Below are positions 1,486-54,784 of a DNA stretch of 57,247 nt, one piece after another. The DNA comes from a virus (taxonomy: Duplodnaviria; Caudoviricetes). Both the position numbers and the translations under genes were made by a program. The notes under the pieces were generated by a model, which made no database searches, was not told where the DNA came from, and saw nothing but the letters and a program-made list of their open reading frames with translations. Where the stretch lies: IMG/VR virus record IMGVR_UViG_3300030107_006392, positions 1 to 57,247 of that record, one strand, 5' to 3'. Positions within the stretch are counted from its first letter, which is position 1. The number at the start of each line of letters is the position of its first letter.

Positions 1486-3779
1486 CGCCTTCCATCCGCA
1501 CGAATATTAATACGTGGAACTCCCAATCTCCACTGAACCCCTTCATTATCACTTGCAACTTTTAAAGCAATGCTTCGACCTCTAACCCTAATAAATGCTT
1601 GATTAGTAAACTGCTCAATGGGCGTTGTAGAGGTTCTAGTTACTGAAGCATCCTGTGACTGATCATATGTAGAGCCAGGAAAATTACGAGCTTTTATTGT
1701 AAAAGTTGCACTTGGATCAGAAGAAGTAGAACCATCAAAAGTCATATCAGGAATTAATCTATCAACAAAACTAAACACCTCTCCCTGTCCTATATCAAAT
1801 TGAGAACTTTCAACATAAGATGTAATAGGGTCTCCATCATTATCATTTCCGTTCTCATGATTAAAAAGATACGGATTAGATTCAATGCCCGTAGCTTGTG
1901 GGAAAGAACGTATGCCTCTATCAATCCAAGCTGTTCTAGCTAACGAACCATAGTACCAGACATTTTCTCCATAATTATAAATAATATAAGAATCATTTTC
2001 TTGTGATTCAGATGAAGGATAGAACCAAATAGCTTCCGTAAACTCTGAATTAATTCCTGCATAAATTGTACGAAGTCTGTTACTATTTAAATTTCCAAAT
2101 ACTTTAAATCTTACAGGGCATGGTAGTTGCTGAACCCTTCCATCGTACTTGTAAAAAGTTTCACGACCCATCCAAAACAATACATCATCAACATTGCCTA
2201 CAGCATTCGGTGAAATAATAGTAGTGTTATTAGAAATTTGAGTAAATGCAAAAGTATCTGGCGCTCCGACAAATGTCATGGAATACATCGCAGTATCTGT
2301 CCAGATAATAATTTCACGTTTAGTTTCTACTGCTTTTACAAATTCAGACCCAGAACCCAAAGGCATATCCCCTGCCGTAGCACCCGTAATGTCCCAATCT
2401 GTTACGCTTTCTGCATTTGACCAGCGAACAAGCAATGCGTCTTGTTGCGTAGATCCTGCTGGATTTGTACCAAAACAAATAACATGTCCGTCTCTATCCG
2501 AAGTAAGAACTTGACGTGCCACTACAGGCACATCAATTCCTCCAGACAAACTAGTTAAATTAACTCCTCTAGTTAAAACTCCATTTGTTTTTTGCCATAT
2601 ATAAACAGCACCATCGCGCACATTAAACAACAAGTCTTCTTCATAATTATCTTGTGACCACAACCTTATTTCATTTAATACAGTTGTATCTGCTCCTTGA
2701 CCCCAACCAATAAAACTTCTTGCATCCTGAACAGTTGATCCATCACTATGAGTAGCACCTGTGGTTCCCCTTGTTGCACGAGCAATACCCGTTAAATCAT
2801 TAGTAGAAATTCCCGTGTACGTTATCAACTCACTGTTAATTAACACAACACCTAAATATGTAACAGTAGCCCCTGCGGTGTGACCTGCGGCTGTAGTTCC
2901 AAACGCCCCTCTAGTAAGATCAGTAAAAACATTCCCATTTAAAGTTCCGTATTTTATTACCTCTGACCCAATAGTAATTGTTCCTTTATCAGCAAATCCT
3001 GTAGAACTAGCTACCGTAATAGAGGTATCGCTATCTAAAATTGTAGAACTTAAAGAAGAAGATCCAGAAGAAAAATCTGTAGCACTCGTTAAAGTAATGT
3101 TAGAAGTGCTTGAAGTGCTGGATATAGCGCCATTAAGAGTGGTTGCTGCTTCTCCTAAAACTTGTCCTCCCCATAATCCAGCGCCCCATCCATTTCCACC
3201 TGATGAGGAATTAAGCCCAGTATTTATTTGATAGATTGCGGTAAAAGAATCTCCTCCTGATCCCGCACCCGATGAGGTGGCCGCGGAGTCAACAGTTATT
3301 ACATAAACATTAGAATCAGTAACACTTGTTATTTGATGCTCTATATTTAAAGAAGCCGCAGGAATACCATTAACTGCGCTTAGTCCTGTGAAGGAAACAA
3401 AATCATTAACTACAGCACCATGACCTATATCAGTAACCGTAATAGTTTTTTCGGTATTAACTGTAACCAAAGCCGCCGCTGTTAAAGTAACAGTTCGACT
3501 TATAGGCGTTATGTCATAAAAAGAATTTCCTTCTTCTAGGTAAAATTTAAGATTAGTTCCAAGACCTAAAAAATTTGACCCATCTAATGTTACCCAATTA
3601 TGCAAAGATCGACAGGCTCCTTGAAAAGAAGAAGGAGAAGCCTTAGTCCAACCACCTATTTTTTCTGGCAACCCATATCTAAATCTAATTTTATCACAAT
3701 CAAACCATCCACCTTCATTAGCATAAGAAGTTGTATCTCTAACAATTCCTGGTCTAAATGTAATGTTCTGATAGGCCAT
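1482..3779 (-). CDS. Tail nozzle/DNA-stabilisation protein (P22 gp10 / tubular B-like) with inserted Thr/Ser-rich beta domains
   Basis: 765 aa; FRPGI..EGGW.DCDKIRFR N-terminus, LLVRWS, IIIWTD, LFWMG, C-terminal R.RGR...DGRR. Confidence 0.75.
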   Translation of the reverse strand: MAYQNITFRPGIVRDTTSYANEGGWFDCDKIRFRYGLPEKIGGWTKASPSSFQGACRSLHNWVTLDGSNFLGLGTNLKFYLEEGNSFYDITPISRTVTLTAAALVTVNTEKTITVTDIGHGAVVNDFVSFTGLSAVNGIPAASLNIEHQITSVTDSNVYVITVDSAATSSGAGSGGDSFTAIYQINTGLNSSSGGNGWGAGLWGGQVLGEAATTLNGAISSTSSTSNITLTSATDFSSGSSSLSSTILDSDTSITVASSTGFADKGTITIGSEVIKYGTLNGNVFTDLTRGAFGTTAAGHTAGATVTYLGVVLINSELITYTGISTNDLTGIARATRGTTGATHSDGSTVQDARSFIGWGQGADTTVLNEIRLWSQDNYEEDLLFNVRDGAVYIWQKTNGVLTRGVNLTSLSGGIDVPVVARQVLTSDRDGHVICFGTNPAGSTQQDALLVRWSNAESVTDWDITGATAGDMPLGSGSEFVKAVETKREIIIWTDTAMYSMTFVGAPDTFAFTQISNNTTIISPNAVGNVDDVLFWMGRETFYKYDGRVQQLPCPVRFKVFGNLNSNRLRTIYAGINSEFTEAIWFYPSSESQENDSYIIYNYGENVWYYGSLARTAWIDRGIRSFPQATGIESNPYLFNHENGNDNDGDPITSYVESSQFDIGQGEVFSFVDRLIPDMTFDGSTSSDPSATFTIKARNFPGSTYDQSQDASVTRTSTTPIEQFTNQAFIRVRGRSIALKVASDNEGVQWRLGVPRINIRADGRR

Positions 3780-18106: not shown

Positions 18107-20574
18107 TAACCTTCTCTCCCTTCTTTATCCATCACAGCTTTAGCAATCTCTACGCCCAAACGAGCGCCTTCCATTTTTTCTTTTTCTGCCAGTTCCACGC
18201 CTTGAAACTCTCCTTCAAGAACGTCACTTGCAATACGTGCTCCAATTTGAGCACCTGTAATTTTTTCCTGCGAGGCTATACGCTCACGCTCACGGGCATC
18301 TGTCATCTCCGCTTTGTCCATATCAACCTTGGCTCTCATCATATCAGCCTGAGCTTTGCGCTCTACTTCCATGCGGCGAATATTAAGCTCTTCCTGTTGT
18401 TGCTGAACAATTGGATCTTGAAGCATCTGTTGCGCTTGTTGCTGTTGTACTTCCGCTTGATCCTTGGCAAGAAGTTTATCAGATGCCTGAGCAAGCAACA
18501 CCGACAGTTCTTTTTCCACATCACGAGGCAACGGTTCACCTTCTGGTGGCAAAGGTACACCCAGTTGTTTTTCTATTTCATTTCTATATTCAAACGTCAA
18601 ATGCTCACGTATATGAGATTCAGCAGCGGATTGAATAGCCCCTGCTCTGGGAGACTGGGATACCAATTCCATAATCTTTGGATCTTTTATAGCGTTCATG
18701 TGAACGGTAATGTGAGCCTTGTGATCTTGATAAGAAAAAGCTTTAACAGGTTTTTCGTTAATAAGGTTTTCATTTTCCGTAACAGGATCTGTGGGTTTGA
18801 CATCGTCTTTGTCTGGAACAATTTTGTTTACATCCTGCAAGCCCATCGTCATTAACATCTGCCTGTGCAATTCTGGCAGATCATACATCTGAGGAGCCTG
18901 CGAAGCCAACTGCAAAGCTGCCTGATACTGCATTACCCTTTGCGCCATTGTTGTTGCATTCGGGTCAGAAACAGGAATAACATCTACCCGTCCATCAAAG
19001 TCTTCCGCCCGTGAAGCCCCCGTCTCATATGCATAGTCTGCTGGTAAAAAAGTTTTAATCAAGTTAGATATGATACCAAACTCTTTACGCATGGATGCAT
19101 GAAGACGAGCTTGAACTGCTGACATTACTTTCATGCCACGCTCAATAATCGCAAGCGTAGTACCAACAGGTGCTTCGTTATTCATATCGCTGATCTTCAT
19201 ATCAGCAAGAGAAGCAAACCTTCGGCCTTCCTCTACAATATTCCCCAGCAACTGGTAAAGAACATTGCTGGGTTCTTTGTACGGCATAAAGGTAATGTTG
19301 TCCCGTATAGCTCCACCAGGTACATCCACATCCCTAAACTCGCCTGGCATGATAGGAGTTTCATCTCCCTTGATCCTTAGTCCTCTTGCCTTTAACCCAG
19401 CAGGAAGATTAGACAATGTCCCTGCATCTACCAACTGACGCAGAATAGATGTTGCCGATTTTGTCAAACCGCCAATGCAATGGATTAATCCGTATCCATA
19501 AAAACCTAATGATGGCAAGTACTTATAATGAACAAAATGAAGCATCTTCTTTTTTAAAGGATCTGTTTCTTCCCAGTTGCGATAAATGGAAAGGATTGTT
19601 CCTGAAGACTTGTCCAGTGTTACCACGTAAGGTAACGCTATTCCTGTAGGCTCACCATCTTTTTCATCTTCAAAATTTGCAAGATCAAGATCAACATGGC
19701 ATTCCAAAAGAGTATAGCGATCATCATATTCAAAAGCAGGACGCTCCCCCTGCAAAGCATTATACTGTTCTTGAACTTTAGTATAATCAGGAGATGGCTC
19801 CCCTAATTCAACATCTCGATAAAACCCGCCTATCTGAAGCTTGCGAATTTCGTTCTTTGTTTTTTTCATTACATGGGTATAGCGCCCACAGCTATTTAAA
19901 TCGGAAGCGCCATAAGCTACAACCATATCCTCCGCAGGAACAAACACGGCTGTCGGACGCTCCATATCAGGATCATAATAAACTTTCTTGAAAGCTGAAC
20001 CTGCCAACGGCAATGCGAACAGCATGTTCTCGTGCTCACTCCTGTAATCAGGCATACCTTCCGTAAGCTGATAGTTCATTTCATTCTGGACACGAACCGC
20101 CTGCTCTTCTTTTTCTTCATTGAGATCGCCAATGATTTGTGTACGCACAGGACCTTTCGCAGGAAAGGTTTCCATAATAGACTGCGCCTGAAAACGAATT
20201 ACCGCTTCGGAAAGAACAGGATGAAATACACCACAGGCACCTGGCCATGGCGTTGTCCTGTCTTCTATTTTTAAACCAAGCAGATCCAAACCTTTTATAT
20301 ACGTTTCTTCCCAGTCGCTTCGGGAACTACGATCAGCTTCAAAAGCCCCTATTAATTCAGACTTGATATTTCCCAGTTCCGATTCTTCCAGATACTCCGC
20401 AAGGTTGGAACCAAAATCTTCTTCGCTTTCCATATCGGGATCAAAATCAATAACCATACCGCCATCAGGCGTTTCAATAGATACAGCTTCAGGATTAACA
20501 ATTTCAATCTCAACCTCATCAATAGATGCATCGGCAGGTTCCCCTACTCCAATCATAGCTTTTTCAACTGCCAT
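18106..20574 (-). CDS. Portal protein
   Basis: Start MAVEK at 20574 (822 aa); PWPGAC, GSAFKKVYYD, FYGYGL, DAGTLSNLP; follows TerL. Confidence 0.9.
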   Translation of the reverse strand: MAVEKAMIGVGEPADASIDEVEIEIVNPEAVSIETPDGGMVIDFDPDMESEEDFGSNLAEYLEESELGNIKSELIGAFEADRSSRSDWEETYIKGLDLLGLKIEDRTTPWPGACGVFHPVLSEAVIRFQAQSIMETFPAKGPVRTQIIGDLNEEKEEQAVRVQNEMNYQLTEGMPDYRSEHENMLFALPLAGSAFKKVYYDPDMERPTAVFVPAEDMVVAYGASDLNSCGRYTHVMKKTKNEIRKLQIGGFYRDVELGEPSPDYTKVQEQYNALQGERPAFEYDDRYTLLECHVDLDLANFEDEKDGEPTGIALPYVVTLDKSSGTILSIYRNWEETDPLKKKMLHFVHYKYLPSLGFYGYGLIHCIGGLTKSATSILRQLVDAGTLSNLPAGLKARGLRIKGDETPIMPGEFRDVDVPGGAIRDNITFMPYKEPSNVLYQLLGNIVEEGRRFASLADMKISDMNNEAPVGTTLAIIERGMKVMSAVQARLHASMRKEFGIISNLIKTFLPADYAYETGASRAEDFDGRVDVIPVSDPNATTMAQRVMQYQAALQLASQAPQMYDLPELHRQMLMTMGLQDVNKIVPDKDDVKPTDPVTENENLINEKPVKAFSYQDHKAHITVHMNAIKDPKIMELVSQSPRAGAIQSAAESHIREHLTFEYRNEIEKQLGVPLPPEGEPLPRDVEKELSVLLAQASDKLLAKDQAEVQQQQAQQMLQDPIVQQQQEELNIRRMEVERKAQADMMRAKVDMDKAEMTDARERERIASQEKITGAQIGARIASDVLEGEFQGVELAEKEKMEGARLGVEIAKAVMDKEGREG

Positions 20575-22067
20575 TAATAATACTCCGCATGTCTTGGAGG
20601 CATCCATTCATCTTCCTCATCGGAAGGATTACGAATAAACCCGCCCTGCCTAAACCTCATTAAAGCCTGTGTCGAACTGTCTACAAGGTCATCATGATCA
20701 CCTGCTGGAAAAGATGCAAACTCTTCGATAACTTCTTCAGCCCATCGAGTAGACGGTGCCCATACCATTCCTGAAGCAAACATATCTGCTACAGAATTTA
20801 CCCGTGCTATTTTATCATTTCCTTTTGAAGGGACATACTCCGATACAGGTATTCCCATTTGACGCAACTCAAACACCAAAGGCATACCTGAAGCCTTCCC
20901 TTCAACAATAAATGCATCAGGATCAAAATCCTTCCACATTTCAAAAGCTCGTTTCTTCAACTCTGGAAATTCCATTCTTTCCTTAAACGCATCAAGAAGA
21001 ATAATATGCATGGCATCTTTTTCTTCGTTTAAAAAAACACCCCATGTCGTACAGGCAGAATAATCTGACCTTTCGGTTTTCAGAAAAGCCGTGTCCCAGC
21101 TTTGGATAACAAACTCACAGGGAGGCGGGTACTTGCCCGTCCATTCCTGCCACCATTCCCTTTTTACCAGAGCGCCTTCTTCTGAAGTCGGGTCCTGCTG
21201 GTACTGGGCTGTCCACTTGGACAACGGCAGTTCCGAGCGTAACGCCTCCAGTTCCTTAATGCCCCAGTACTCAGGCCACAAAGGATTGCCCGAAGGCATA
21301 ATAGCAGGAAGCTCAATAACCTCCCATTCATCGGAACCGCTTCGCTTGACGGAGTTATCTATAATCTTTCCCGTAAGATCCCGCTTGCTCCAGCGTGTCA
21401 TCACAACAATAATCGAACCACCAGGCTGTAGTCTCTGTCGAGGACCTGATGTGTACCACTCATACACCCGATCAAAAACTTCAGGATGGTACTGACCTTG
21501 TGCGGCATCCTGTTCCGAATGCGGATCATCAATAATCAAAATATCCGCACCCTTACCTGTAACAGCACCACCAACACCGATAGCAAAGTACTCACCGCCC
21601 TTGTTTGTATTCCAACGCCCAGCAGCCTTGCTGTCAGACTGCAATTGAGACTTGGGGAATATATCTTTAAACCCCTGATCATTAAACAAGTTACGCACCT
21701 TCCTGCCGAAGCCTACCGCCAGTTCTGCCGTGTGCGCTGTTTGAATAACTTTTTTTTCGGGAGACTTTCCTAAAAACCATGCAGGAAGAAGATAGGAAGC
21801 AAACTCCGACTTCGTGTGTCTGGGCGGCATATTGACAATCAGCCTTTTAAGCTTTCCTTCCGCTACCCGTTCAAAGGCTTCAGCCATGGTCTTATGATGC
21901 TTGCCCTCAATAAATGCAGGCCATACAGCTTTTACAAACGACAAAAAATTATGCTGGCTTGCCTCGCGTTTTTTTGCTGTCTCAAGTTTTTCAATAAGAT
22001 CAAGAAGCTCACACTGCTCATGATGAGGCAAAGATGCTATATGTGTCTGCATTGCCTGAAGGTTCAT
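20574..22067 (-). CDS. terL: Terminase large subunit
   Basis: Walker A VNMPPRHTKS, Walker B IIDDP, VVMTRW, YQQDP, nuclease SWDTA and HDDLVDS. Confidence 0.95.
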   Translation of the reverse strand: MNLQAMQTHIASLPHHEQCELLDLIEKLETAKKREASQHNFLSFVKAVWPAFIEGKHHKTMAEAFERVAEGKLKRLIVNMPPRHTKSEFASYLLPAWFLGKSPEKKVIQTAHTAELAVGFGRKVRNLFNDQGFKDIFPKSQLQSDSKAAGRWNTNKGGEYFAIGVGGAVTGKGADILIIDDPHSEQDAAQGQYHPEVFDRVYEWYTSGPRQRLQPGGSIIVVMTRWSKRDLTGKIIDNSVKRSGSDEWEVIELPAIMPSGNPLWPEYWGIKELEALRSELPLSKWTAQYQQDPTSEEGALVKREWWQEWTGKYPPPCEFVIQSWDTAFLKTERSDYSACTTWGVFLNEEKDAMHIILLDAFKERMEFPELKKRAFEMWKDFDPDAFIVEGKASGMPLVFELRQMGIPVSEYVPSKGNDKIARVNSVADMFASGMVWAPSTRWAEEVIEEFASFPAGDHDDLVDSSTQALMRFRQGGFIRNPSDEEDEWMPPRHAEYY

Positions 22068-24688: not shown

Positions 24689-24991
24689 GTTATACCTCTT
24701 TAAAATTATATTTATCTATTACCACAGGTATATGGATGAGTACAAGCGCCCAAGGGAAAAATGGGATTTTTCTAAACGGAAATTAATTTTTTGCGGAGCA
24801 TTCCAGAACAAATGTCCAATTAAAAAAAAAGCGGCTCTAGGAAAAACTTTTCGCATTTTATAGGGATTATTTCACATCAAATACAACTTTTTACTTGACA
24901 TGCCCTATACGCCCCAAAGAAGCCCATACAAGAGGATTAGGCATTCTCTATGCCCTACTATTCAGAAAGGGTCTTCCGCGATTTTAGCCCT

Positions 24992-25044
24992 TAACTTATT
25001 GAAATCATTACATCTTTTTTAGAGCATTAGCTAAGTACTTGATA
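24992..25044. promoter_or_regulatory. Two IHF-like sites 40 bp apart
   Basis: Minus strand TATCAAGTACTTA (25032-25044) matches WATCAANNNNTTR; TTTCAATAAGTTA (24992-25004) has one mismatch. Confidence 0.45.
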
Positions 25045-25069
25045 TCATTACCTTTTATTATCGCAGGTT

Positions 25070-25097
25070 TTAACCCCAATTTAACCCCCAGTTTAAC
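25070..25097. promoter_or_regulatory. CtrA-type box within three TTTAACCC repeats
   Basis: TTAA-CCCCAAT-TTAAC at 25070-25085 fits TTAA-N7-TTAAC. Confidence 0.45.
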
Positions 25098-25191
25098 CCA
25101 TGATTTGTGTAAGATTTATTTTTGATTATCGTCTAATACGATATGAGAATATCTGTTGCCTACTTAATAAGAAGTATTCCGACTAAAGGGG

Positions 25192-25220
25192 TTTACATAT
25201 TCTTATGAGTGTAGTAGATT
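25192..25220 (+). promoter_or_regulatory. Sigma70-type early promoter
   Basis: TTTACA-17 bp-TAGATT. Confidence 0.65.
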
Positions 25221-25224
25221 GTCA

Positions 25225-25445
25225 GCGAATCCCTCTCGCTAACCCAGTTGAGAACGATTCGCAACTAGAAAGGAGCATAATTAAGCAGTCTATGTGATTT
25301 GTAGGATAGCAAGCCCTGCACGCTGGCACTTGATCCACTGGGGCGATTCGGCAACTACGGTACGAATCAAAATTTGCTAAAACTGGTTTCGGTCACAGTT
25401 AAAAAACCCAAGTTTTCGGGACTGCTTACCTATGTTCCTTTTTTA
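25225..25445 (+). ncRNA. Unassigned structured RNA: 5' hairpin plus a multi-hairpin domain closed by a ~20-bp stem
   Basis: GCGAATC/GATTCGC; AAAGGAGCATA-AT-TAAGCAGTC pairs with GACTGCTTA-CC-TATGTTCCTTT; several internal hairpins; no credible ORF. Confidence 0.65.
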
Positions 25446-25473
25446 CTTCAACCAACTATAGGAGATTACTGCC

Positions 25474-25668
25474 ATGGTTAACCCAATACAAAGCCCAGAC
25501 CAATATGCTCAAACGCTTTTTAAGGCTGGTTACAGGGCCACCAACAGCCAAGATTCAAGTGACATAGTCGAAGGTTTAAAAGCAGATTACGGTTTTTTAA
25601 ATTACAATTATACGCTCGAAGTTTTGAGTGAATTAGAAGAAATCGAACACAAGATGGAGGGAAAATAA
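25474..25668 (+). CDS. Early hypothetical protein
   Basis: RBS AGGAG; 64 aa. Confidence 0.65.
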   Translation: MVNPIQSPDQYAQTLFKAGYRATNSQDSSDIVEGLKADYGFLNYNYTLEVLSELEEIEHKMEGK

Positions 25669-25669
25669 A

Positions 25670-26071
25670 ATGGCATGGATTGATGAAGCAGAAGCCGAAA
25701 TGAGATTTAAAGCGAACTTTAAAACCATGAGATTTAACAAAACAAAATCAGGAACAGTCCAACTAATCGATTCATATGGTCATGGTAAATCTGCGCGAGG
25801 TAACTGGTCATCTGCCCCAGCGACTTTAATCTGTGACGATGGCGATGGGCATTATGATGTCTGGAGGTTTACAGGGAAGCTAGATGATGCAGTAGAGGAA
25901 GTAGCATGTCTTTATACTGGCAATGACGGCCTGTATATTGTGGAGCATGTTACTAGAGGCCGACTCGATGCCGTACCTGTTCCAGACGATTTTTGGATCG
26001 AGGATACCTCCGACAGTTGGAGTGACGTTAAACCAAATTTGGATAAATACCCTCACGTAATTTGTTGGTAA
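25670..26071 (+). CDS. Early hypothetical protein
   Basis: RBS GGAGG; 133 aa. Confidence 0.65.
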   Translation: MAWIDEAEAEMRFKANFKTMRFNKTKSGTVQLIDSYGHGKSARGNWSSAPATLICDDGDGHYDVWRFTGKLDDAVEEVACLYTGNDGLYIVEHVTRGRLDAVPVPDDFWIEDTSDSWSDVKPNLDKYPHVICW

Positions 26072-26085
26072 AGGAGAATACTATC

Positions 26086-27138
26086 ATGGAATATATCTTA
26101 TCAATAGCCGATCTGCCCGACTACATTCGCTTTGCGATGGTGAAGCAGTGTAACAGCATTAAGGGAAAAAGCGTTTTAATATTAGGTCCTGTGGGTGTGG
26201 GAAAATCCCAGATCCCAGTGCAGGTGGCCGAATCCGAAAACTGGAAAGTAGTAACGGTAAATCTGAGCAATTATCAACCAAGTGAAGTTAGTGGTTGGGT
26301 CACTCAAGTTGGCGATACCATGCAACAGCTAATCCCTGATTGGGCTAAACAAATATTCGATCACGCCAATGAGAGTTCCGACAAGACTCTCTTGATTTTC
26401 GAAGAGTTCCCACAGTGTGATATAGACGTACAGAAGTCCACATCGCAAATAATTTGGGATCGAAGGGTGGCAGGTCTACGATTGCCGGAAGATTGCTTGA
26501 TAATTGCAAATGGCAACAGGAAAAAAGATAAATCAGCAGTCAAGTCAATCCCTGAGCATTTGATCTCACGATTCAATATCGTAAACATCGAGGCAGAATT
26601 GGCTCCAACATTGGCACATTTTGCCAAAATCGGTGTTGCCCCAGAAGTGCAGATGTATTTGACCCAGTTCGCGGATAGTCTGCACAAGCATGAGGCAAAT
26701 GGAACATCGTTCCCATGTCCTCGAACATGGGTGGACGTCAGCGATACCTTGAAACTGAAAGCACCAAAGGCCATCGAGTCTGCCATGATTGCAGGAGCAA
26801 TTGGCGTTGGGGAAGGGGCGAAGCTATCTGGGTTTCTCAGAGTATGGAGAGACCTAGTGCCACCGTCTCAAGTATTTGCTAATCCTGAGACTGCCCCAGT
26901 TCCTGAGAAAGCAGACGTGCGATATGCAATGATCGGGAGTCTGGTTGCTTCATGCACCAACAAAGATGCGAAAGCACTCGCTACTTACATCAAGAGACTA
27001 CCACCCGAATATCATTCTGTGGCAGGGGCTACGATCAAGCGAAAAAACGAGGGTGTGTCTGATCCCTCGAAAAAATTATCGTGTAAAGAATTTACAGATA
27101 TCTTAATTCAAACCGCTCAACTTTTAAATGGGGAGTAA
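26086..27138 (+). CDS. MoxR-like AAA+ ATPase
   Basis: RBS AAGGAG, ATG 26086; Walker A GPVGVGKS, Walker B LLIFEE, ANGN, SRF, PCPRTW. Confidence 0.85.
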   Translation: MEYILSIADLPDYIRFAMVKQCNSIKGKSVLILGPVGVGKSQIPVQVAESENWKVVTVNLSNYQPSEVSGWVTQVGDTMQQLIPDWAKQIFDHANESSDKTLLIFEEFPQCDIDVQKSTSQIIWDRRVAGLRLPEDCLIIANGNRKKDKSAVKSIPEHLISRFNIVNIEAELAPTLAHFAKIGVAPEVQMYLTQFADSLHKHEANGTSFPCPRTWVDVSDTLKLKAPKAIESAMIAGAIGVGEGAKLSGFLRVWRDLVPPSQVFANPETAPVPEKADVRYAMIGSLVASCTNKDAKALATYIKRLPPEYHSVAGATIKRKNEGVSDPSKKLSCKEFTDILIQTAQLLNGE

Positions 27139-27140
27139 TC

Positions 27141-28049
27141 ATGGATATATTACAGAAAAACGCAATGCTAGTTCAGTTGAATATCAATTCGGCTGGCTTC
27201 TGTCGTAAAGATAAATCAGTCACAGATCAGGTGAACAATGAACACGGTGCTTCCTACGATGCAGGGAAATACAACAAGAATTTGTTCAGCACCAAAGATA
27301 CTGAGGTACCCAAGCAGTTAGCACGTCAGGCTCGATCAGTGGTTGATCACTTCTGTCTTCACTGGTCTGGCAACCAACGCCTGTTGCCTGTTGCAAATTA
27401 TGAGAAATTTCTGGAGCGAATCACCGCCATCAAATCTAAGTTCTATCAGGCGGTGGATGACCTAGACCAGAAAATTCCCTCACTAATTGAGCAGAGACGC
27501 ACTCAGTTGAATGGCATGTTCAAAGAATCGGACTATGAGTGCTATAAAGATTTAAAATCTTTGTATAAATTCAATGTCAACTTTTCGCCCATCCCCAGCG
27601 GGGATCATTTCCTAGTCGATTTAGTCGAAGAGGAAACAGCGATCATTAAGCAGGAGATCGAGGAAAGTAATGCCCAGTTGTTAGGGACGGCTACTGAAGA
27701 AAGTTTCGAGAGACTTCACAAAGCAGTTAACCATATCGCTACATGCCTCAAAGACTTTGAAGCAGTCGAGGTTTATAAAGCGGGTGGTAAGAAAAAAGTC
27801 GAGACGACTCGCAGGCTTTACGACACGATGACAAGTAACCTCAGCGACTTAGTCGACATTCTGCCAGCCTTAAACATCACAGGCGATGCCAGACTTGCAG
27901 GCTTGATTGATGATGTGAGGGCAAGCTCTTTGCTCAAGCACAGTGTCGAGGATTTTCGTGATCCAAAACAAAAACACGTTGTTGCAACCGTTCAGACTGA
28001 GGCTCAGGAAATTGCTGAGAAAATGTCTGGATTTTTTGGGGGGGTATAA
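27141..28049 (+). CDS. DUF3150-like helical protein
   Basis: NAMLVQLNI, RKD...T, K.L, RLLP, LPALNITGD..L; typical partner between AAA and vWA genes. Confidence 0.65.
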   Translation: MDILQKNAMLVQLNINSAGFCRKDKSVTDQVNNEHGASYDAGKYNKNLFSTKDTEVPKQLARQARSVVDHFCLHWSGNQRLLPVANYEKFLERITAIKSKFYQAVDDLDQKIPSLIEQRRTQLNGMFKESDYECYKDLKSLYKFNVNFSPIPSGDHFLVDLVEEETAIIKQEIEESNAQLLGTATEESFERLHKAVNHIATCLKDFEAVEVYKAGGKKKVETTRRLYDTMTSNLSDLVDILPALNITGDARLAGLIDDVRASSLLKHSVEDFRDPKQKHVVATVQTEAQEIAEKMSGFFGGV

Positions 28050-28050
28050 T

Positions 28051-29370
28051 ATGAGCGGATTAGTTAGTCAACTAAGGGATGGGGCCATTGCCCCATCCGA
28101 CAAGGTGCTGAGACATGTTAGCCGTGCAAAAATTCGGCTTCAGATATCAGACCCTTTTAGCGGTGCCATTGTGATGCAAATGCCCACAGTTTTCACTGGA
28201 GCATTACCAACCATGGCAACTGATGGAACTTCTCTCTACATCAATCCAGAATTTGCCGAAAGTTTGAGCGGTGATGAAATAGTTGGGGTTCTCACTCACG
28301 AAGTGATGCACAAAATATTCTTCCATCACTTGCGTAGAAACAATCGGGACTCAAAAATCTGGAATGTGTCGGGAGATGTGATTATCAATCACTTGCTACG
28401 CAAGGACGGTAAGACATTGCCAGAGTCTGGTCTGGATTGGGATAGCGTTGGGGAACTGAAAAAATCACGAGAGGATTATTCCACAGAGATTCTTGCTGAT
28501 GAACTAATCTCAAACAAGCAAGAAGAGAAGCAAGACCAAGACCAAGATCAAGATCAAGGCCAGAGCAATGATCAAGAACAGGATCAGGATCAGGATCAGG
28601 ATCAGGATCAGGATCAAGACCAAGGTCAAGGTCAAGGTCAGGATCAAGACCAAGGTGATCCCTTTGCCGATGAGGGTGGCACTGGGATTGTGATCGATGC
28701 TGAGAGCGATAGCGGTGAGCCTTTGAATGCCACTGAAATTTCACAGGCAGAGCGAGAACTTGCCTCGGAAATTCAGAACTGTGCCCAGATTGCAAAGGCT
28801 CAGGGAAAATTACCTGCACATGTTGCTGAGTATGTCAAAGACTTAGCTTCATCAACAGTTGACTGGTGTGATGAGTTTGCGAGATTCTTGGGGAAAGGCT
28901 CTGATCATCGATCAGACTGGAACATCCCCGATAAGAAGTGGCTCAAGCGAGGAATATTCCAACCGCGCAGAGTGCGCGAAGGAACTGGTCACGTAGTGAT
29001 CGCCATCGATACGAGTGCCAGTGTCAGTACCAAAGAATACAAGGCACTGATGGCAGAAGCTAAGTCTATATGCTTGGACATAGATGCTGAGAAAGTCACG
29101 GTCATCTACTGTGATACCCGCATCGCTCATGTCGATAACTTTGACGATCCCTCTGACATCACAGAGCGCGATCTTGGGCGCTATGGCGGTGGTGGCACTG
29201 ACTTTGCCCCACCATTTCAATACGTTTATGAGAACGAGATTGATGTGGACTCTTTTGTCTATCTCACAGACCTCGAAGCACGTATGCCAGAGGAGCCAGA
29301 CTATCCTGTACTCTGGGTATCAACCACCAAACTCGAAGCAGATTTTGGAAAAACCATCCACATTAACTAG
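28051..29370 (+). CDS. Zincin metallopeptidase + vWA protein (DUF2201-like)
   Basis: TMATDG..LYINPEF, HEVMH...H..R, WN...D..IN; MIDAS DTSAS, GGGTDF, YLTD; ATG at 28051. Confidence 0.85.
   Translation: MSGLVSQLRDGAIAPSDKVLRHVSRAKIRLQISDPFSGAIVMQMPTVFTGALPTMATDGTSLYINPEFAESLSGDEIVGVLTHEVMHKIFFHHLRRNNRDSKIWNVSGDVIINHLLRKDGKTLPESGLDWDSVGELKKSREDYSTEILADELISNKQEEKQDQDQDQDQGQSNDQEQDQDQDQDQDQDQDQGQGQGQDQDQGDPFADEGGTGIVIDAESDSGEPLNATEISQAERELASEIQNCAQIAKAQGKLPAHVAEYVKDLASSTVDWCDEFARFLGKGSDHRSDWNIPDKKWLKRGIFQPRRVREGTGHVVIAIDTSASVSTKEYKALMAEAKSICLDIDAEKVTVIYCDTRIAHVDNFDDPSDITERDLGRYGGGGTDFAPPFQYVYENEIDVDSFVYLTDLEARMPEEPDYPVLWVSTTKLEADFGKTIHIN
28531..28659 (+). repeat. Hexanucleotide microsatellite encoding a (QD/QG)n linker
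   Basis: (CAGGAT)6 at 28579-28614 flanked by CAAGAC/CAAGAT/CAAGGT units. Confidence 0.9.
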
Positions 29371-29403
29371 AGGAGCGGGGGCTAACGCCCCCGAATTATT
29401 ATC

Positions 29404-30270
29404 ATGGATAAAGAAGCTTATAAAAAATACAAAGACAACCTCACTGCTTTGAATGAGGTCACCGCACTCGTGGAGAGATTAGCAGAAAATAAAATTAAAG
29501 TTTTTTCAGGTGGGGACAATGCCCCATTTGATAAGGACAAGTATATAACAAGTTGGCAATTAGGAAAACGATTTAAAGAGATGGGCGGTTCGTCTTTGGG
29601 GGAGTTTGATAGCGTGATATCAAGCCTCTACAGACAAGTTAAAAATTGGAGGCGTGAGAGCAAACCTAAAGGTCAACTATCTTTTAAACAAAAATGGGCA
29701 CAAAAAGTTGGCAACCTAGAAAAATCCCTTTCAGAGTGGCGTGAGGAGGTCGTGGTTGAAGTTAAAATTGGAAATCTTATCCCCAACGTACCTGAGTGGC
29801 ATGTGGGATTTGAGAATGGGGCAACCTGTGATCAGTTCCCTTTTAAATTATCCACTGAAAAACCCAGAGGATATGGGTGCTTCAAGGTCAGAGTCGCTAT
29901 CACTACAAACTTTTTAAAAAAGGTGGTTCCTTTTTTTAAATCTGGTGAATATTGTGAACCATTTGTCGAGAGAGTATGCAAGAAAGCATATGGAGACTCG
30001 ACATACCAATACCTCGTTCTTCACATCGATGAGCCAATGTTTGAGGCTGAAGGTCAAAGTTTTGATCATGGGATTAAGGTTAGAAAATTTCATGGGCTTG
30101 AGACTTACGGACGCAAGGCTAATCGTGAGGTTGTGCCAGTGACTCGATATCTTGCATACACTGGAGACACCTGTAAATACGATTCAATTATTGGAACAGC
30201 AACCAGTGCCATTAAAGCATATAAACTTTTGAAGTCTCGCATTGCCAGAGATTTGTTAAAGAAGTTATGA
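29404..30270 (+). CDS. Hypothetical protein
   Basis: 288-aa ORF in the early operon. Confidence 0.7.
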   Translation: MDKEAYKKYKDNLTALNEVTALVERLAENKIKVFSGGDNAPFDKDKYITSWQLGKRFKEMGGSSLGEFDSVISSLYRQVKNWRRESKPKGQLSFKQKWAQKVGNLEKSLSEWREEVVVEVKIGNLIPNVPEWHVGFENGATCDQFPFKLSTEKPRGYGCFKVRVAITTNFLKKVVPFFKSGEYCEPFVERVCKKAYGDSTYQYLVLHIDEPMFEAEGQSFDHGIKVRKFHGLETYGRKANREVVPVTRYLAYTGDTCKYDSIIGTATSAIKAYKLLKSRIARDLLKKL

Positions 30271-44426: not shown

Positions 44427-47400
44427 TTATTGAAATGCCTCTTGACGCAGTTCAGGAATAGCTTCTACTGCCAGCAACTCTTCGGCTGTTATCTCTTTAA
44501 TTAAATCTCTCTTTGCTTCAGCGCTGAGATTTGATCGCAGTATATCTAAACGCTCTTTCCTAAGCTCCGAAAGAACTCCAGCAATAGCTTCTACTTCTAT
44601 CTCCAAATCTAAAAGTTCAAGGCGCTTTTCTTCAAACTTTTCTGCCTCACTTACAGTTAGCTCCCCCTGTTCCAAATCTTTTAAGGTATTCACCGCCTGC
44701 CCTACGGCCTCTCTAAGATCATAGAACTGTGTTACTAATCCACGAGCATCTGGTCTCGCAAAGAATCTTTTAATAAACGGATACTCACTGAGTTGCTTGC
44801 TAGGACGTTCTCCCAGTTCTTCAGAAGTCTGCCTCATCACCTGATCTATTGTATCAAACAACACTGTCCCTAAAGTCCCGCTATATCCCTTTATCATATG
44901 GTCTATCTTTACAGGAGAAGCATTGAGTGCCTGCCCAAGTTCTATCGCCAGCGCAGATGTACGACTGTTTGCCCTGTATCCTGGCTCTAACCGTTCCAAA
45001 TAAGACCCTTCAATTTCACGGCCTGTCCAAAAACTAAAGTTTGTAATAGCCTCACCGATAGGAAGCACTGCTTGTGGGATAGGATTAAACTCAAAAGTAT
45101 TTGCTAAACCTCTCGTCAAAGCAGTTACAGTATCTCTAGGCACATCTTTTCCAAACATAAGTGCCATTGTTCTTTCAGGTAAAGTCTTAAATAAAAACCC
45201 TACTTCAAACGGGATCGGTATTCTGAGGGGCGGTCCCTCATAACCAGGTATGAACTTGGATGGGATGATCCAATAGTTGTCTTTTATTTCTGGGTTCTGG
45301 TTGATATATTCTTCGTCATCATGAACTAGCGCCCAGTATGCTGCGCTGCTCATCCCCACTAACAATGCCCGTGTAATAAAGCGTCTTTTAACAATATCAG
45401 ATTCTACTCGTGGGGTGAAACCTTTAGCTCCCATTGAGGCTCGATAAAGAACATCAAGCCCCTGTAAACGTGCATTTAAAAACGGAACCATCACTGCTAA
45501 ATTCTGAATAACTGCGGATGATCCCCGTGCTGAAAAGTTAATAACTTCCTGAGCTTCGTAAATTGCCTGCACCTCATCGCCAGTTTCTTGCAATACCTTT
45601 TCATATACAGCAATTCGTGTGGCTGCATCCGATGCCCGTGATGCGGTGCCTGATGCATCCCATATAGCTTTAAGGGGATTGCGTATTATCCTTCCCATTT
45701 TGGATGGATACTTATATTTCAACAATTCTTTTTCAATAAAGTCTGTCATCTTGGAAGGATCACCACCAAAATCAAAGCCTGTCATTAATCCTGCGGAAGC
45801 TATTGCATCAGCCGATGTACTGCCTTTAAGCGCCTTTACAAAACCACTGGTTGTTCCAGCTAATGCCCCTGTATTACGACCACTCGTTGCCCAAGCAGAA
45901 AGAGAATCACGCAACATATTGGCTACCATGAAGTCAGGTGAACGAGTAACCATTTCTCTTAAAAACCTAGCAGGCATTCCTAAAAAATTAACAAAAGGAT
46001 TTATCTGTTGATTAGAGTTATAGTTTGCTAATGCAGAATACATAGCCTGATCACTGATATGCAGTGTCATTTCCTTGCCTTTAACTCTAAACGTAATAGA
46101 ATTAGTAGAACCCTTCTTAACTTTAACAGTTTGCGTGGGGTCTAGAATAGCCATGTTCCGCATAGCACGTTGCACACCTACGTTAAGCATTCCAGTCTGA
46201 ACAGCGCTTAATGCATTCTCAGTTACAGTATCAAGGAACCCCCCAATAGGCATCCCTTTCCTAGAAACTCTGGTACTTACCCCAGTTTCATCTGTATATT
46301 TTTTAGCATAAGCTTCCGCTATAGTTTTTTCTTTCGCATCAAATGTAGTAGGGAGCATGGTCTCATTGCCATCAGCATCCGTAGCAATAACCGCATAAAC
46401 CGTTCCCGTTCCTTTTAGTACAGGAGGAACATGGGTAGTAATGCCAGCGAACATATTGCCTTCACCAGAAATTTCCCCTAGATTTTCTTCCTTCTGATAT
46501 TTGCTGTCTAGCTGTCTATAGAATGGAATATAATCCCCTGTTTCCTTCCATTTCTCTGCTTGGGTTGCATCAAGCACCCCAGTATCTACAAGGAAATCTA
46601 CAAAATAACTATTCCATACCTGATAGTCTTGAAAGATATCAGAGAAATCTTTATTAAACTTAATATTTTTGTCCCCTATAAGCGTGTTAACCTGAGCAAC
46701 ATCAACGCCCATGATTTGAGCTATCTCAGATACGCTGTTTCCCAATGCTAAATACTGTGCAATCTGCTCCTGAGTAAGAAGTTTCTCTCTTCCTTCTTGT
46801 ATTAATCGTGCAGCCCTTCGGGCAATAGAATAAAAATGAAATGCTTTAAAACGATTGCCGTTTCGCAAAGGTTCAATAATTGGAATAAGTCCTGTATCAG
46901 TTCCAGCGATACGACTACGCTCTCTTGTGCCATCAAAATTAATCTGCTCTGCATCTTCAGGAATTGCTTCTACTTTTGTACCGCCACCTCGATAAACAGG
47001 AACCCCTTTTGATAGGGCATACGCCGTAATAGCTGTGCCTCTACGAGCCATGCGTAACGCAGCATGAGCAGAACCACTCGCACTCAAGGCACCAGCATAT
47101 CTTGCATCCTTCTCGGATATTGCTACATCCCCCCGTCTGGCAGGGTCCCAATTATCAATAACATTCTGACGAAACCATTTTCCAAACTCACCAAAACTAT
47201 CCAGCTTTGTCCCGCCTAACATGCCCAAGCTTCCCAGAAACTTTTGGCCTAATGTTTCATGGCGATTTTCTTCCACAGTCCCTGAAGGAAACTCCACCCC
47301 CATCTCCATCGGAGCGCTCTTAATAGAATAATTTTGAGATATAGGACGTGCCTGTTTTGATGGAAGGGTTAACGTATTAGGTCCAACTTTTTTGGGCATG

Positions 47401-50400
47401 TTAATTTCAATGGCTGTTCTTTTTGCCAAAGGGGATACTCCATTCAGATTATAAGTACCGTTTCTGGCAAGACGTGAAGCAGTGTCTACATACTCTCTTT
47501 CAAAATTAGCAGGACGTGATCTTCTTTCAGAGTATGTAGGTCCTTCAGGAAAAATAGTTGCCAGTGCAAAATAAGGTCTTCTCTGTCCTTCTAAAATTCC
47601 TTCGGGCAAGAACTGAAACCCTGCTTTAATTATCTTTTCAGACTCAGGATCTTTCCATGAAATCTCGTAAGCTCCGTACTCTCCTCTTTCATTAGCTTCT
47701 GTACGAAATTCCCCCTTACGAACAGGGTCTGCATACGCATCCATCATTGAACCTAAAGCTTGCCCTACATTTTCATAAGGAGTGTACGCTAAGAAGTCAG
47801 GTTCATGTTCTTGAGCATGTTCATACCCTACTGTTCTCCTGTCTCCTCTAGGCATAATGACAGGTATAGACTGGCCTTTATATTGTTTAGGAACGCCAGT
47901 TGATGTAATTCTTCCCCATACACGGGACACCTCTCCATCAGGAAGTCTGCGCCCAACTAATGCTTGTTGTCGTGGGGATAAGTTTCTAAAGTTTCGAGCC
48001 TGTTTGTCTGGTGTTAAATCTTCAACAACTTGTTTATCAAGACGAGATATTTTTCCATCAAGTATTTTAACTCTTCTTGTAGCAGTAGGTTCATATTCAG
48101 TACCTAAGATATCCCAAAACTTTTTTGCTTTCTTTTGAATGTCATATATACGCAAGTCATTATCTGCATTAGCAAATAAATTTTCTACTATTTTTCGACC
48201 TGCCCCTTGTCCACGTTTATTTTTTGCTACTTCTATATTAACCAGTCCTTCAATTTCGTCAGTAGCATTTCCTGTTTCTTCGTCAACAACTAAATTAATT
48301 TCTACTCTTCCAAGCCTAGCTTCTTTTAAAGTTTCTTTAGATGGGCGACCTCCATCAGGAGGAAGGTTATTTTCTATAAACTTTTTATCATAAACCTCAA
48401 ACCCTAATCTAGCCACACCAGGTGCAGAACTACCTGCTCTTATGCCAGCAGTGAAGATTAAATTTTCATTTTCTAGTTGATCAAAAAAACCTGACTTTAA
48501 TTCTAAACGTGGGGCGATAGGAGATTGATTGATAGGTCTAGCTTGTTTATCTCCAGCATCAACTTCTGTGGGCTGTTGAGTTTCAAGAACTTCATCAACA
48601 GGATTGAACTGTTGGTCTACTTCTGGTTCAGTTCTATATCGACTGTTGTATCTATCGTTTCTTGTCCATCCATATCGTTCAGCAATTTCTTGCTCTGCTG
48701 CTTCAATCCTGTCTGCATATTTGGTGACGATAGAACGAACCCTGTCTTGAAGATCGGGTCGTCCTCCAAAGGTTCCTTCAAGGTAAATTTCGCCATTAGG
48801 ATTTTCCTTCCAACCTCCAAAGTTGCCTACATAAACATTTTGGGATGCTGCTTTATTAACAACCATCCCTTCAGGGTTAGGTATATCAGATATCTCGAAA
48901 CTGTTCAATGCATTAATAACTTTGTTCTGAAACTGGCGATTGTCTGTTTTTTCTATGCCATCCTTAGTTTGATAGGTATCACCCATCTCCATAAAGTTAA
49001 TAATATTTGCTCCATTTTCTGTAGATACAGGAGAAAAATCTGTACTATCAAATTCTTGTTGCAATATAGAATCTAAATTAGTTATCTCTTCATTAGTAAA
49101 AGGTCTTCCTATATTTACAGCTACCGCATTCTTGTCTCTTAATGGAACACTTTTGTTAAAAAATAAACGATGTGCTCCAACACCATCTTGTTTTAATAAA
49201 ATACCCCTAGCTGTCATGTACATCTTAACTAAATCAAGAGTAGCCTCATCAACTTCACCAGGCTGTCCCTTATACTTCATAGGCATCAATGCATACGTTT
49301 GAGTTCCTGGACTTACTACTCCTTCATAAACACCTGGTGCATCAAAACTTCTTGGTGAAAGCAACCCAACTTCTTGCGCCAACAAATCTCTACCATTATC
49401 ATCAGTAAGAGCCTTGGACATGGTGAAGTGATAGTCTGCCTGTTCATTCATAGGAGCATTAAATATTTCAGGAAAGTGACCACTTTCTTGAGAAGGTTTA
49501 GTCTCCCAAGATATTTGACCAAGGTTTTTTTCTAGTGCATCTTGGTAGTCAAAAGTCATTTCTGACACAGGCTTGCCATCTCTACTAGCTTTTTGAACTA
49601 CCCACATAGCCGCTTGAACTTGGTAAGGAGTCCATCCTAATTGATCTGCTATACGAGTAACTTCATTTTCAACAAAGTCATATTGTGCAGGGGTAGGAGT
49701 TCCCCCCTCAGATGGAAAACCAAAAACCCTCATCATGTGCATATCAACAGTAACACCCTGTGATCGTGACGGATCAATACTTGCCATGATATTATTATAA
49801 AAGGTATTAGTTTTACGTCCAGGCCAGTCAATTCCATCAAATAATTTTTCTAACCTTGGAACCATAGCTGAAGGAAACTTGCCAGTTAGTATAGGTCTGC
49901 CAGCTTTCCATTGATTATAAGCTTGAATAGCAAATTGAAAGTTTGCTAACACTGGAGTAGAGCCAGCACTAGTAATAGCAATGGCTTGGGCTATTTTATC
50001 TGCCTCTTCTTTATTTCCATCTACTAAATCTAATATTGAATTGCCTGATCGTTCATACCAAAACCTGCCAGGCTCCCCTTCTTCAGCAATTTTCAACATA
50101 TTTTTACGCAATGTTCTTAACTTCTGAGGGCTATCTATTCCTTTAGGAGCACCAACATATTGACCTGTTGTTCCAATTCTTCTGGCTTGTTTATCGCCTT
50201 CACTTGATTGGAAGAAAGGTCTGTAGAACTTGACACTGGACTCACCGCCTCTAAGCCGTGGAGGAACAGCACTCAACCCATCACTTCTACCTACACTATC
50301 CACAAAGTTATTAAGATTATCAATGTCTGTAGAGTCTATAGAAAGTCTATCATTAGCAATTTTTAAAGATGGAACTTGTTCTAAGAGTTCTTCACGATTA

Positions 50401-54780: not shown

Positions 54781-54784
54781 CGCA

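What the first reader, a model, noticed from the sequence alone, without database searches (positions are those of the whole stretch)
25225..25445. Unassigned ~220-nt structured RNA as the first early transcript
Seen: right after the promoter, a 5' hairpin (25225-25262), then a domain closed by a ~20-bp stem with a 2x2 internal loop (25269-25290 with 25420-25441), ending in a U-run. Inside are TGTAGG/CCTGCA, GATTCG/CGAATC and AACTG/CAGTT (TTCG in the loop) hairpins with A-rich linkers. The CGAATC/GATTCG pair occurs in both the 5' hairpin and an inner hairpin, so alternative folds are possible. I cannot match it to tRNA, tmRNA, a riboswitch or a ribozyme. Inference: a phage sRNA (decoy or anti-defence), or an attenuator controlling the AAA/vWA operon.
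Basis: partly seen in the sequence, partly recalled or inferred. Interest (0 to 1): 0.72.

Follow-up and report, generated by a model that had tools for sequence, protein, structure and literature searches.

The report
Structured early leader RNA of phage
A marine phage opens its early gene block with a conserved, tightly folded non-coding RNA of about 220 bases that fits no known family; related phages carry other folded RNAs at that spot, followed by a self-cutting hammerhead ribozyme.

Summary
On the + strand, 25225-25262 is a hairpin. 25267-25291 pairs with 25419-25443 (P1: 23 pairs, one 2x2 loop) around a 127-nt branched domain, followed by six U (25439-25444). Fold z is -4.0 (+) against -2.6 (-). 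No shuffle gave as long a helix (0 of 300). Rfam, ARAGORN and phage BLAST gave nothing.

The element is under selection. Against the only close relative, the P1-closed domain is 94% identical (168/178), while four-fold sites of the adjacent AAA gene are 62% identical (86/139). Marine metagenome variants carry a compensatory C-G to A-U change in the GAUUCG/CGAAUC hairpin and wobble-compatible changes.

New context: relatives with 69-72% AAA identity share the promoter motif. They carry non-alignable leaders, and most have a type III hammerhead just before the AAA ribosome site, once per genome record. The window has no hammerhead.

Best reading (0.45): a detachable early leader RNA. P1 plus the U-run, by partial termination or RNase III, would do what the hammerhead does in relatives. 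Rivals are an attenuator or a simple mRNA-end processing site. Transcription, release and function are not shown. It is a candidate RNA family with few members. Interest 0.55.

The parts
25184..25197 (+). Conserved promoter-proximal motif TAAAGGGGTT + -35 hexamer TTTACA (25192-25197)
   Evidence: -35 hexamer; the motif AAAGGGGTTKMM lies 287-386 nt upstream of the first start codon in 11 of 13 loci tested; it occurs once in the window.
25215..25220 (+). -10 hexamer TAGATT. The predicted start of transcription is about 25226-25228 (inferred).
   Evidence: The spacer and -10 are poorly conserved in L012 (18 of 30 identical over 25192-25220).
25225..25262 (+). 5' hairpin (7 + 5 + 2 pairs) at or next to the predicted 5' end
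   Evidence: pair probabilities 0.88-1.0 apart from one pair at 0.50. Kept in the metagenome variant (U-A to U.G). The 5' arm is not conserved in L012.
25267..25291 (+). P1 5' strand (contains the SD-like AAAGGAG); internal loop at 25280-81
   Evidence: L012 changes 25279, 25280 and 25429 remodel the 2x2 loop into two new pairs plus one U.U mismatch (pairing worked out by hand).
25292..25418 (+). 127-nt branched inner domain. It holds a three-way junction (UAGCAA 25307-12 / UUGCUA 25374-79; GCCCUG 25313-18 / UGGGGC 25339-44; GAUUCG 25345-50 / CGAAUC 25363-68) and two near-isoenergetic ways of closing it: P2 25296-301 / 25409-14 or P2' 25293-98 / 25392-97.
   Evidence: -57.5 against -56.6 kcal/mol. 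Compensatory 25349 C>A with 25364 G>U, and wobble-compatible changes at 25316 and 25317. L012 has U-A to G-C in P2, together with a one-base bulge.
25419..25443 (+). P1 3' strand
   Evidence: In a metagenome variant, 25416-25446 is replaced by 77 letters that I could not see.
25439..25444 (+). Run of six U directly after, and partly within, P1: a possible leaky intrinsic terminator or sRNA 3' end
   Evidence: Identical in L012. The terminator scan did not call it, because that scan allows loops of only 3-8 nt.
25460..25476 (+). AGGAG ribosome site and ATG of the first ORF (25474-25668). In L012 the same site and ATG open the AAA gene directly.

Best explanation
25225-25445 is a real, strand-specific, selected non-coding RNA. 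It is the leader of the phage's early transcript, made from a promoter whose motif is shared across this phage family.

Its core is a 127-nt branched domain clamped by a 23-pair helix (P1), whose 3' strand runs into six U. I read it as a detachable RNA module. P1 plus the U-run would separate a compact RNA of about 180-220 nt from the downstream message, either by leaky intrinsic termination or by host RNase III cutting the P1 stalk. Read-through or processed transcripts would express the two small ORFs and the AAA/vWA genes. In most relatives a type III hammerhead does the same separating job at the same junction.

The released RNA is probably the selected product. Its role is unknown; I guess host take-over or counter-defence.

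Shown: the fold statistics, strand bias, conservation above neutral sites, a few compensatory changes, the position, and the hammerhead in relatives.
Inferred: transcription from this promoter, release, and any action in trans.
For: 1. Structure
- z -4.0 to -4.7 on the + strand against -1.3 to -2.6 on the - strand.
- P1 has 23 of 25 positions paired; 0 of 300 shuffles reached this.

2. Selection
- Window against L012: 168 of 178 positions identical in 25267-25443, against 86 of 139 four-fold sites in the adjacent AAA gene.
- The stretch 25221-25248 just upstream is only 11 of 28 identical, so the high identity is not uniform.

3. Pair-preserving changes
- C-G to A-U in GAUUCG/CGAAUC.
- C-G to U.G and U.G to C-G in GCCCUG/UGGGGC.
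- U-A to U.G in the 5' hairpin of a variant seen in contigs of 3 studies.
- U-A to G-C in P2 of L012.
- The G.U-tolerant changes only make sense on the + strand.

4. Context
- The promoter motif precedes the leader in 11 of 13 loci.
- Six of 14 relative loci have an Rfam hammerhead hit (E 7e-6 to 0.05), 16-21 nt before the AAA start.
- Six parse as canonical, with 88 of 90 stem cells paired.
- The hammerhead occurs once per record in 3 of 3 relative records searched.
- In leader types C, D and E the predicted fold is also a domain closed by a 5'-3' stem. In L031 and L021 it ends next to the cleavage site.

5. Need for read-through
- In L012 the leader, ribosome site and ATG are fused straight to the AAA gene. 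The operon therefore depends on passing P1 and the U-run, which fits a leaky or processed junction.
Against: - There is no transcript evidence of any kind.
- Only two full sequences of this RNA type exist (window, L012), plus partial metagenome variants. RNAalifold on the two found 0 pairs with changes on both sides.
- The inner fold is ambiguous: two conformers lie 0.9 kcal/mol apart.
- The variant breaks 2 of 6 pairs of UAGCAA/UUGCUA at the window's register and one pair in each P2 version.
- In that variant, the P1 3' strand and U-run (25416-25446) are replaced by 77 unseen letters. P1 may therefore not be universal.
- The high identity to L012 could partly reflect recent recombination of the intergenic block: 25100-25191 is also 90% identical.
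- P1 is A-U rich next to the U-run and encloses 127 nt, which is unlike a textbook terminator.
- Group B leaders of relatives are not unusually stable (z -0.8 to +1.9).
- A hammerhead at that junction is explained equally well by a need for a defined mRNA 5' end.
Confidence: 0.45

Rival explanations
1. A cis-acting attenuator, riboswitch-like or protein-controlled. The inner domain senses a signal that stabilises or melts P1. P1 plus the U-run then terminates or lets pass transcription into the small ORFs and the AAA/vWA genes.
For: - The geometry is a P1-closed branched domain directly followed by a U-run, 30 nt before the first ribosome site.
- The operon of L012 has no other visible entry.
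- Two near-isoenergetic inner conformers exist.
- The inner domain is strongly conserved.
Against: - No riboswitch family matches.
- Relatives put a hammerhead, not a terminator, at the junction, and carry non-alignable leaders. That is odd for a sensor of one conserved signal.
- No competing antiterminator pairing was found. The duplicated GATTCG idea fails in the variants.
Confidence: 0.25
2. A plain mRNA processing and stability element with no function of its own. P1 would be an RNase III stalk, as in the T7 early leader or the rRNA leader-trailer helix. It would give the early message a defined, protected 5' end, the job done by the hammerhead in relatives. The excised piece would be waste.
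For: - P1 is a duplex of 23 pairs with an internal loop.
- There is a single hammerhead per relative record, exactly at the leader/ribosome-site junction.
- Perreault 2011 (PMC3088659, passages read) proposes that phage hammerheads process long transcripts. It notes that the 5' end of a haloarchaeal virus transcript maps to a hammerhead site.
Against: - Waste RNA should drift. Yet the inner 127 nt are 121 of 128 identical to L012, where neutral sites are 62% identical.
- Within group B, leaders are more alike than four-fold sites: 90% against 69%, and 62% against 41%.
Confidence: 0.2
3. Not an RNA feature. It would be a DNA-level element of the divergent intergenic region (origin or regulator-binding region), or a chance palindrome.
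For: - The same intergenic region holds direct repeats TTTAACCCC x3 (25068-25099) whose copy number varies between variants.
- Relatives have two TTATCCACA (DnaA-box-like) repeats there.
Against: - There is strand asymmetry of fold stability.
- The changes tolerate G.U pairs.
- The element lies downstream of a conserved promoter motif and upstream of a ribosome site.
- 0 of 300 shuffles reach the P1 helix.
Confidence: 0.07

Closest known systems
Type III hammerhead ribozyme (Rfam RF00008) in phage transcripts
   Same: Relatives carry one at the same junction between leader and first ribosome site. Whatever it does there (cutting leader from message) is the likely job of P1 plus the U-run in the window.
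   Different: The window and L012 have no hammerhead core. Rfam E<=0.5 gave 0 hits in the whole window. The core pattern is absent from 24689-25473.
RNase III processing stalks: T7 early-leader R sites and the rRNA leader-trailer helix (recalled; the rRNA case only from the listing and abstract of PMC10250234)
   Same: A long-range duplex of about two helical turns with an internal loop. It lies in the leader of a polycistronic early transcript and encloses or adjoins an RNA to be released.
   Different: Cleavage is untested. The stalk here is followed by a U-run and encloses a conserved 127-nt domain of unknown function.
Riboswitch-type transcription attenuators and the sRNAs that arise from their terminated leaders (recalled)
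   Same: A P1-closed branched domain, then a U-run, then the ribosome site of the first gene.
   Different: There is no match to any riboswitch class. No separate terminator or antiterminator pair is present; P1 itself abuts the U-run.
Y RNA / bacterial YrlA-like RNAs (recalled)
   Same: The architecture is a terminal stem made of the 5' and 3' parts plus a branched module. A vWA protein is encoded nearby.
   Different: There is no Rfam hit. The vWA protein is DUF2201_N + DUF2201; its vWA_Ro60 hit is below cut-off (19.6 against 27.7 bits), and no TROVE domain was reported.
HK022 put RNAs (recalled)
   Same: Structured RNA made immediately downstream of early promoters.
   Different: put consists of two stem-loops that act on RNA polymerase in cis. 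Nothing here was or could be tested for that, and a hammerhead that cuts the leader off in relatives fits it poorly.

Membership tests
Hammerhead ribozyme type III (RF00008) | Core CUGANGA ... GAAA with an NUH cleavage triplet and three stems; covariance-model score | tested here: not met
   Window: 0 Rfam hits at E<=0.5. 7 core-pattern matches in the window, at chance level (5.6 expected), none in 24689-25473. L012's leader has none either. The feature is met in relatives: 6 of 14 loci at E 7e-6 to 0.05, all below the gathering score of 48.5 bits.
Any Rfam family (riboswitches, ribozymes, phage RNAs, Y/YrlA, pRNA, 6S, IMES and others) | Covariance-model match | tested here: not met
   Gathering threshold over the whole window: 0 hits. 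E<=10 on 24700-25700: 5 hits, all E>=1.6 and 16-62 bits below their cut-offs. E<=0.5 over the whole window: 0 hits.
tRNA / tmRNA | Cloverleaf or tmRNA detected by ARAGORN | tested here: not met
   0 genes in the window.
Intrinsic (Rho-independent) terminator | Stable stem directly followed by a U-run | tested here: inconclusive
   Six U (25439-25444) follow P1. However, the stem encloses 127 nt and its last 8 pairs are A-U rich.
RNase III processing site | About 20 or more pairs of duplex, often with an internal loop; cleavage by RNase III | not testable with these tools
   The duplex of 13 + 10 pairs with a 2x2 loop is present. Cleavage cannot be computed.
Ro60/Rsr-associated Y RNA | Partner protein with a TROVE domain encoded nearby | tested here: not met
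   Pfam on the six ORFs downstream of the leader (25474-30270) shows no TROVE domain. There is only a sub-threshold vWA_Ro60 hit on the DUF2201 protein.

The most novel reading that the evidence does not exclude
This family of marine phages keeps, right behind a conserved early promoter, a swap-in site for unrelated compact RNAs. There are at least five non-alignable leader types among genomes with 69-93% identical AAA genes. Each RNA would be released by a built-in 3' device: a hammerhead in most, a P1 stalk plus U-run in the window. The leaders would then be an RNA counterpart of the protein anti-defence or host-take-over gene hot-spots at the start of phage early operons. Phage hammerheads would serve as 3'-end makers for such RNAs.
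Probability: 0.15. Interest if true: 0.85.

Novelty: new variant of a known kind. Interest (0 to 1): 0.55.

Why it matters
The natural role of hammerhead ribozymes in phage genomes is still open. Here one phage family shows, at one fixed junction, either a hammerhead or a long stalk with a U-run, behind leaders that are conserved within a type but not alignable between types. That gives a simple testable system:
- Does the junction make a free small RNA, or only trim the message?
- What do the leader RNAs do early in infection?

For the window itself, the result is a candidate RNA family with a few sequence variants, found in seawater metagenomes of several studies.

Tried and rejected
Searches for a known identity
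- Rfam at three settings, ARAGORN and blastn against 50,697 phage records: nothing.

Searches for more copies
- nhmmer/blastn of the RNA against the first loci: only L002.
- Gapped pattern TAGCAAGCC..TTGATCC in IMG/VR: 120 or more stretches, chance matches, a wasted scan.
- A 19-base stretch of the window in IMG/VR: only L012's contig plus one chance hit, L178.
- AAA alignment against genome contigs: no relative.
- Covariance model R1 over 32 sources (180,781 bases): only the window and L012.

An early idea that failed
- I first thought the window's leader was homologous to group B leaders through shared short motifs. The nhmmer profile of group B finds nothing in the window's leader. Local alignments to 7 other leaders are not above shuffles (the first scoring scheme was uninformative). 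Only the promoter motif is shared.

Other rejected ideas
- Kissing interaction between hammerhead loop 1 and the leader: complementarity is not above shuffled loops (154-298 of 300 shuffles as good).
- Antisense targets of the RNA within the phage genome: nothing longer than 11 bases apart from P1 itself.
- Best-duplex test between the two halves: 46 of 1000 shuffles as good, so it is not a useful statistic.

Expression
- No RNA holder listed among 20 public runs.

Protein context
- PADLOC and NCBIfam on the operon proteins: only weak P-loop hits.

Literature
- Three full-text searches listed no description of this locus.

Tools and files not available
- Supplements of Perreault 2011, which list its phage hammerheads, were not seen.

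Full report
**Where it lies.**
The window is one IMG/VR virus record of 57,247 bases, estimated 95% complete, and the element occurs once in it. The finding sits in a 786-base gap (24689-25473). To the left is a leftward block that includes a terminase (20574-22067, Terminase_6C). To the right is a rightward block:
- two small ORFs (25474-25668, 25670-26071);
- an AAA_5 ATPase, whose real start is ATG 26086;
- a 302-aa protein;
- a DUF2201_N + DUF2201 vWA protein;
- then primase-helicase, exonuclease, Sak annealing protein and a methylase.

The ATPase is a distant relative (under 30% identity) of the N4 gp24-like ATPases of cultured phages. No cultured phage is close.

**The observation.**
P1 is 13 + 10 pairs (25267-25279 / 25431-25443 and 25282-25291 / 25419-25428) around a 2x2 loop. 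Six U (25439-25444) follow.
- The + strand folds at -73.2 kcal/mol, z -4.0, with 0 of 200 shuffles as good. The - strand has z -2.6.
- On 25227-25446 the contrast is -4.67 against -1.26.
- An ungapped helix with 23 of 25 positions paired was reached by 0 of 300 shuffles; the maximum was 21.
- A looser duplex statistic was not exceptional: 46 of 1000 shuffles as good.

Inside P1 the fold is less certain.
- Two ways of closing the junction differ by only 0.9 kcal/mol.

**It is not a known RNA.**
- Rfam gave no hit at gathering score in the whole window.
- With E up to 10 on 24700-25700 it gave only noise: 5 hits, all E>=1.6.
- With E up to 0.5 on the whole window it gave nothing.
- ARAGORN found no tRNA or tmRNA.

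**It is conserved beyond neutral expectation, but the family is small.**
Searches with the neighbouring ATPase found one close relative, L002 = L012, with the same leader in L024 and L025 (93% protein identity).
- Four-fold degenerate sites of the ATPase gene are 86 of 139 identical (62%).
- The P1-closed domain is 168 of 178 identical (94%) and the spacer with ribosome site is 29 of 30 identical.
- The promoter spacer and the 5' arm of the 5' hairpin are only 18 of 30 and 11 of 28 identical.
- Caution: 25100-25191 is also 90% identical, so recent exchange of part of the intergenic block cannot be excluded.

In L012 the leader, ribosome site and ATG are fused directly to the ATPase gene. The window's two small ORFs are an insertion relative to it.

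**Substitutions against L012.**
- One is compensatory in the MFE's P2 (U-A to G-C, with a one-base bulge).
- Several are wobble-compatible.
- Three remodel the P1 internal loop while keeping the stem.
- One breaks a pair of the weak AACUG/CAGUU hairpin (pairing judged by hand).
- RNAalifold on the two sequences reports no pair changed on both sides.

**Metagenome variants.**
Twenty public DNA runs from 13 studies of sea water hold part of the stretch. I laid four of them. Contigs from three studies carry a variant about 94% alike. Applying its tabulated changes to the window gave:
- GAUUCG/CGAAUC keeps all six pairs through a C-G to A-U double change.
- GCCCUG/UGGGGC keeps all six through C-G to U.G and U.G to C-G.
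- The 5' hairpin keeps seven through U-A to U.G.
- UAGCAA/UUGCUA loses two of six pairs at the window's register.

In this variant, 25416-25446 (the P1 3' strand and the U-run) is replaced by 77 letters that the tool does not print. This is the main open point. The variant is not in IMG/VR.

**What relatives carry at the same place.**
Relatives with 69-72% identical ATPases are L013, L014, L016, L018, L021, L026, L029 and L031; L162 is at 43%.
- All share the motif AAAGGGGTTKMM about 290-390 bases before the first start codon. Counting the window and L012, it is present in 11 of 13 loci tested. It occurs once in the window.
- Their leaders cannot be aligned to the window's. The nhmmer profile finds nothing, pairwise scores are not above shuffles, and the covariance model hits only the window and L012 among 32 sources.
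- By eye the leaders fall into at least five types.
- Within type B, leaders are more alike than four-fold sites: 90% against 69%, and 62% against 41%.

**Hammerheads in relatives.**
- Immediately before the ATPase ribosome site, 6 of the 14 loci searched give an Rfam type III hammerhead hit. E is 7e-6 to 0.05, and all scores are under the gathering score.
- Six parse as canonical (L013, L014, L016, L018, L021, L029), with 88 of 90 stem cells paired and a few compensatory pairs.
- L031 (bulged stem II), L026 (forked stem II) and L022 (an extra U) are atypical and may be inactive (judged by eye).
- L012, L019, L020, L023, L033 and L162 show none.
- In three relative records, one of them 100% complete, the hammerhead occurs exactly once, at this junction.
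- The predicted folds of L031, L021 and L026 are also domains closed by a long 5'-3' stem. In L031 and L021 it ends next to the cleavage site.
- Type B leaders are not unusually stable.

**Reading.**
One fixed junction, between a conserved promoter and the first ribosome site, carries either a self-cutting ribozyme or, in the window's type, a long stalk with a U-run. In each case the leader in front of it is constrained within its type. The simplest common function is to cut the leader from the message. I therefore favour (0.45) a detachable leader RNA. It would be released by leaky termination at the U-run or by RNase III in P1, with the compact RNA as the selected product.

Perreault et al. 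2011 (PMC3088659, passages read) propose that phage hammerheads process long transcripts. That fits the third reading below as well as mine. The rival readings are:
- an attenuator that gates the operon (0.25);
- a mere 5'-end processing and stability site whose excised part is waste (0.20), which fits the hammerhead but not the conservation of the inner domain;
- a DNA-level element or chance (0.07), which is disfavoured by the strand asymmetry and the G.U-tolerant changes.

None of transcription, termination, cleavage or trans action has been observed.

**Novelty.**
The RNA matches no curated family, and three full-text searches listed no description of it. The kind of element (a structured phage leader or leader-derived sRNA) is known, and the hammerheads in relatives are new members of a known class. 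What is unusual is the alternation of junction devices behind swap-in leader types.

With two full sequences and partial variants, the structural model is supported for P1 and the GAUUCG/CGAAUC arm, and is tentative elsewhere.

Noticed in passing
L013 563-617, L014 1437-1492, L016 1436-1490, L018 1434-1489, L021 1436-1494, L029 1435-1494; atypical in L031, L026 and L022: Type III hammerhead ribozymes lie 16-21 nt upstream of the AAA ATPase start in relatives of this phage, once per record in the 3 records searched. All score below Rfam's gathering score. Three look atypical: a bulged stem II, a forked stem II, and an extra U at 10.1.
   Followed up: yes
window 25068-25099: Three direct repeats of TTTAACCC(C) with an 11-12 base period lie about 100 bases upstream of the promoter. 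Metagenome variants carry an extra copy (insertions behind 25087-25089). They may be iterons or a regulator-binding array.
   Followed up: partly
L005 about 3262-3290 (also L004, L006): Two direct repeats containing TTATCCACA lie in the same intergenic region of group B relatives. The match to the DnaA-box consensus is recalled, not tested. This hints that the divergent region may also hold a replication origin.
   Followed up: no
window 25474-26085: The two small ORFs (64 and 133 aa, no family hit) are absent from the closest relative, where the same ribosome site and ATG open the AAA gene. A metagenome variant also skips 25671-25726. This is an accessory-gene insertion point right behind the leader.
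   Followed up: partly
window 24982-25018 and 25025-25053: A roughly 24-base motif (TAAsTwyTTGAwATCATTAC) occurs twice. The first copy is also found on other, more abundant metagenome contigs that otherwise do not match (records 2 and 11; depth about 100 in X6). Similar CTAAGTnnTTGAT words occur upstream in L012, group B and L162.
   Followed up: no
window 25407-25420, - strand: There is a terminator-like hairpin plus T-run on the - strand (CCCGAAAACTTGGG TTTTTT), inside the RNA domain. No leftward gene ends nearby, so it is probably a by-product of the + strand structure.
   Followed up: no
window 44427-52403, - strand: A 2658-aa ORF carries LPD38 and DUF7178 domains (a large polyvalent protein). 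A 905-aa protein with a cell-wall hydrolase domain lies next to it at 52417-55134.
   Followed up: no
L019, L020, L023, L033 (upstream 400 nt of the AAA gene): Relatives at about 50% AAA identity have a long, GC-rich, stable leader (L020 z -3.2 on the + strand, -2.8 on the - strand). It lacks both the promoter motif and a hammerhead. It shares a GTCACC...GTGACCGGCT inverted repeat with the region upstream of the promoter in group B.
   Followed up: no
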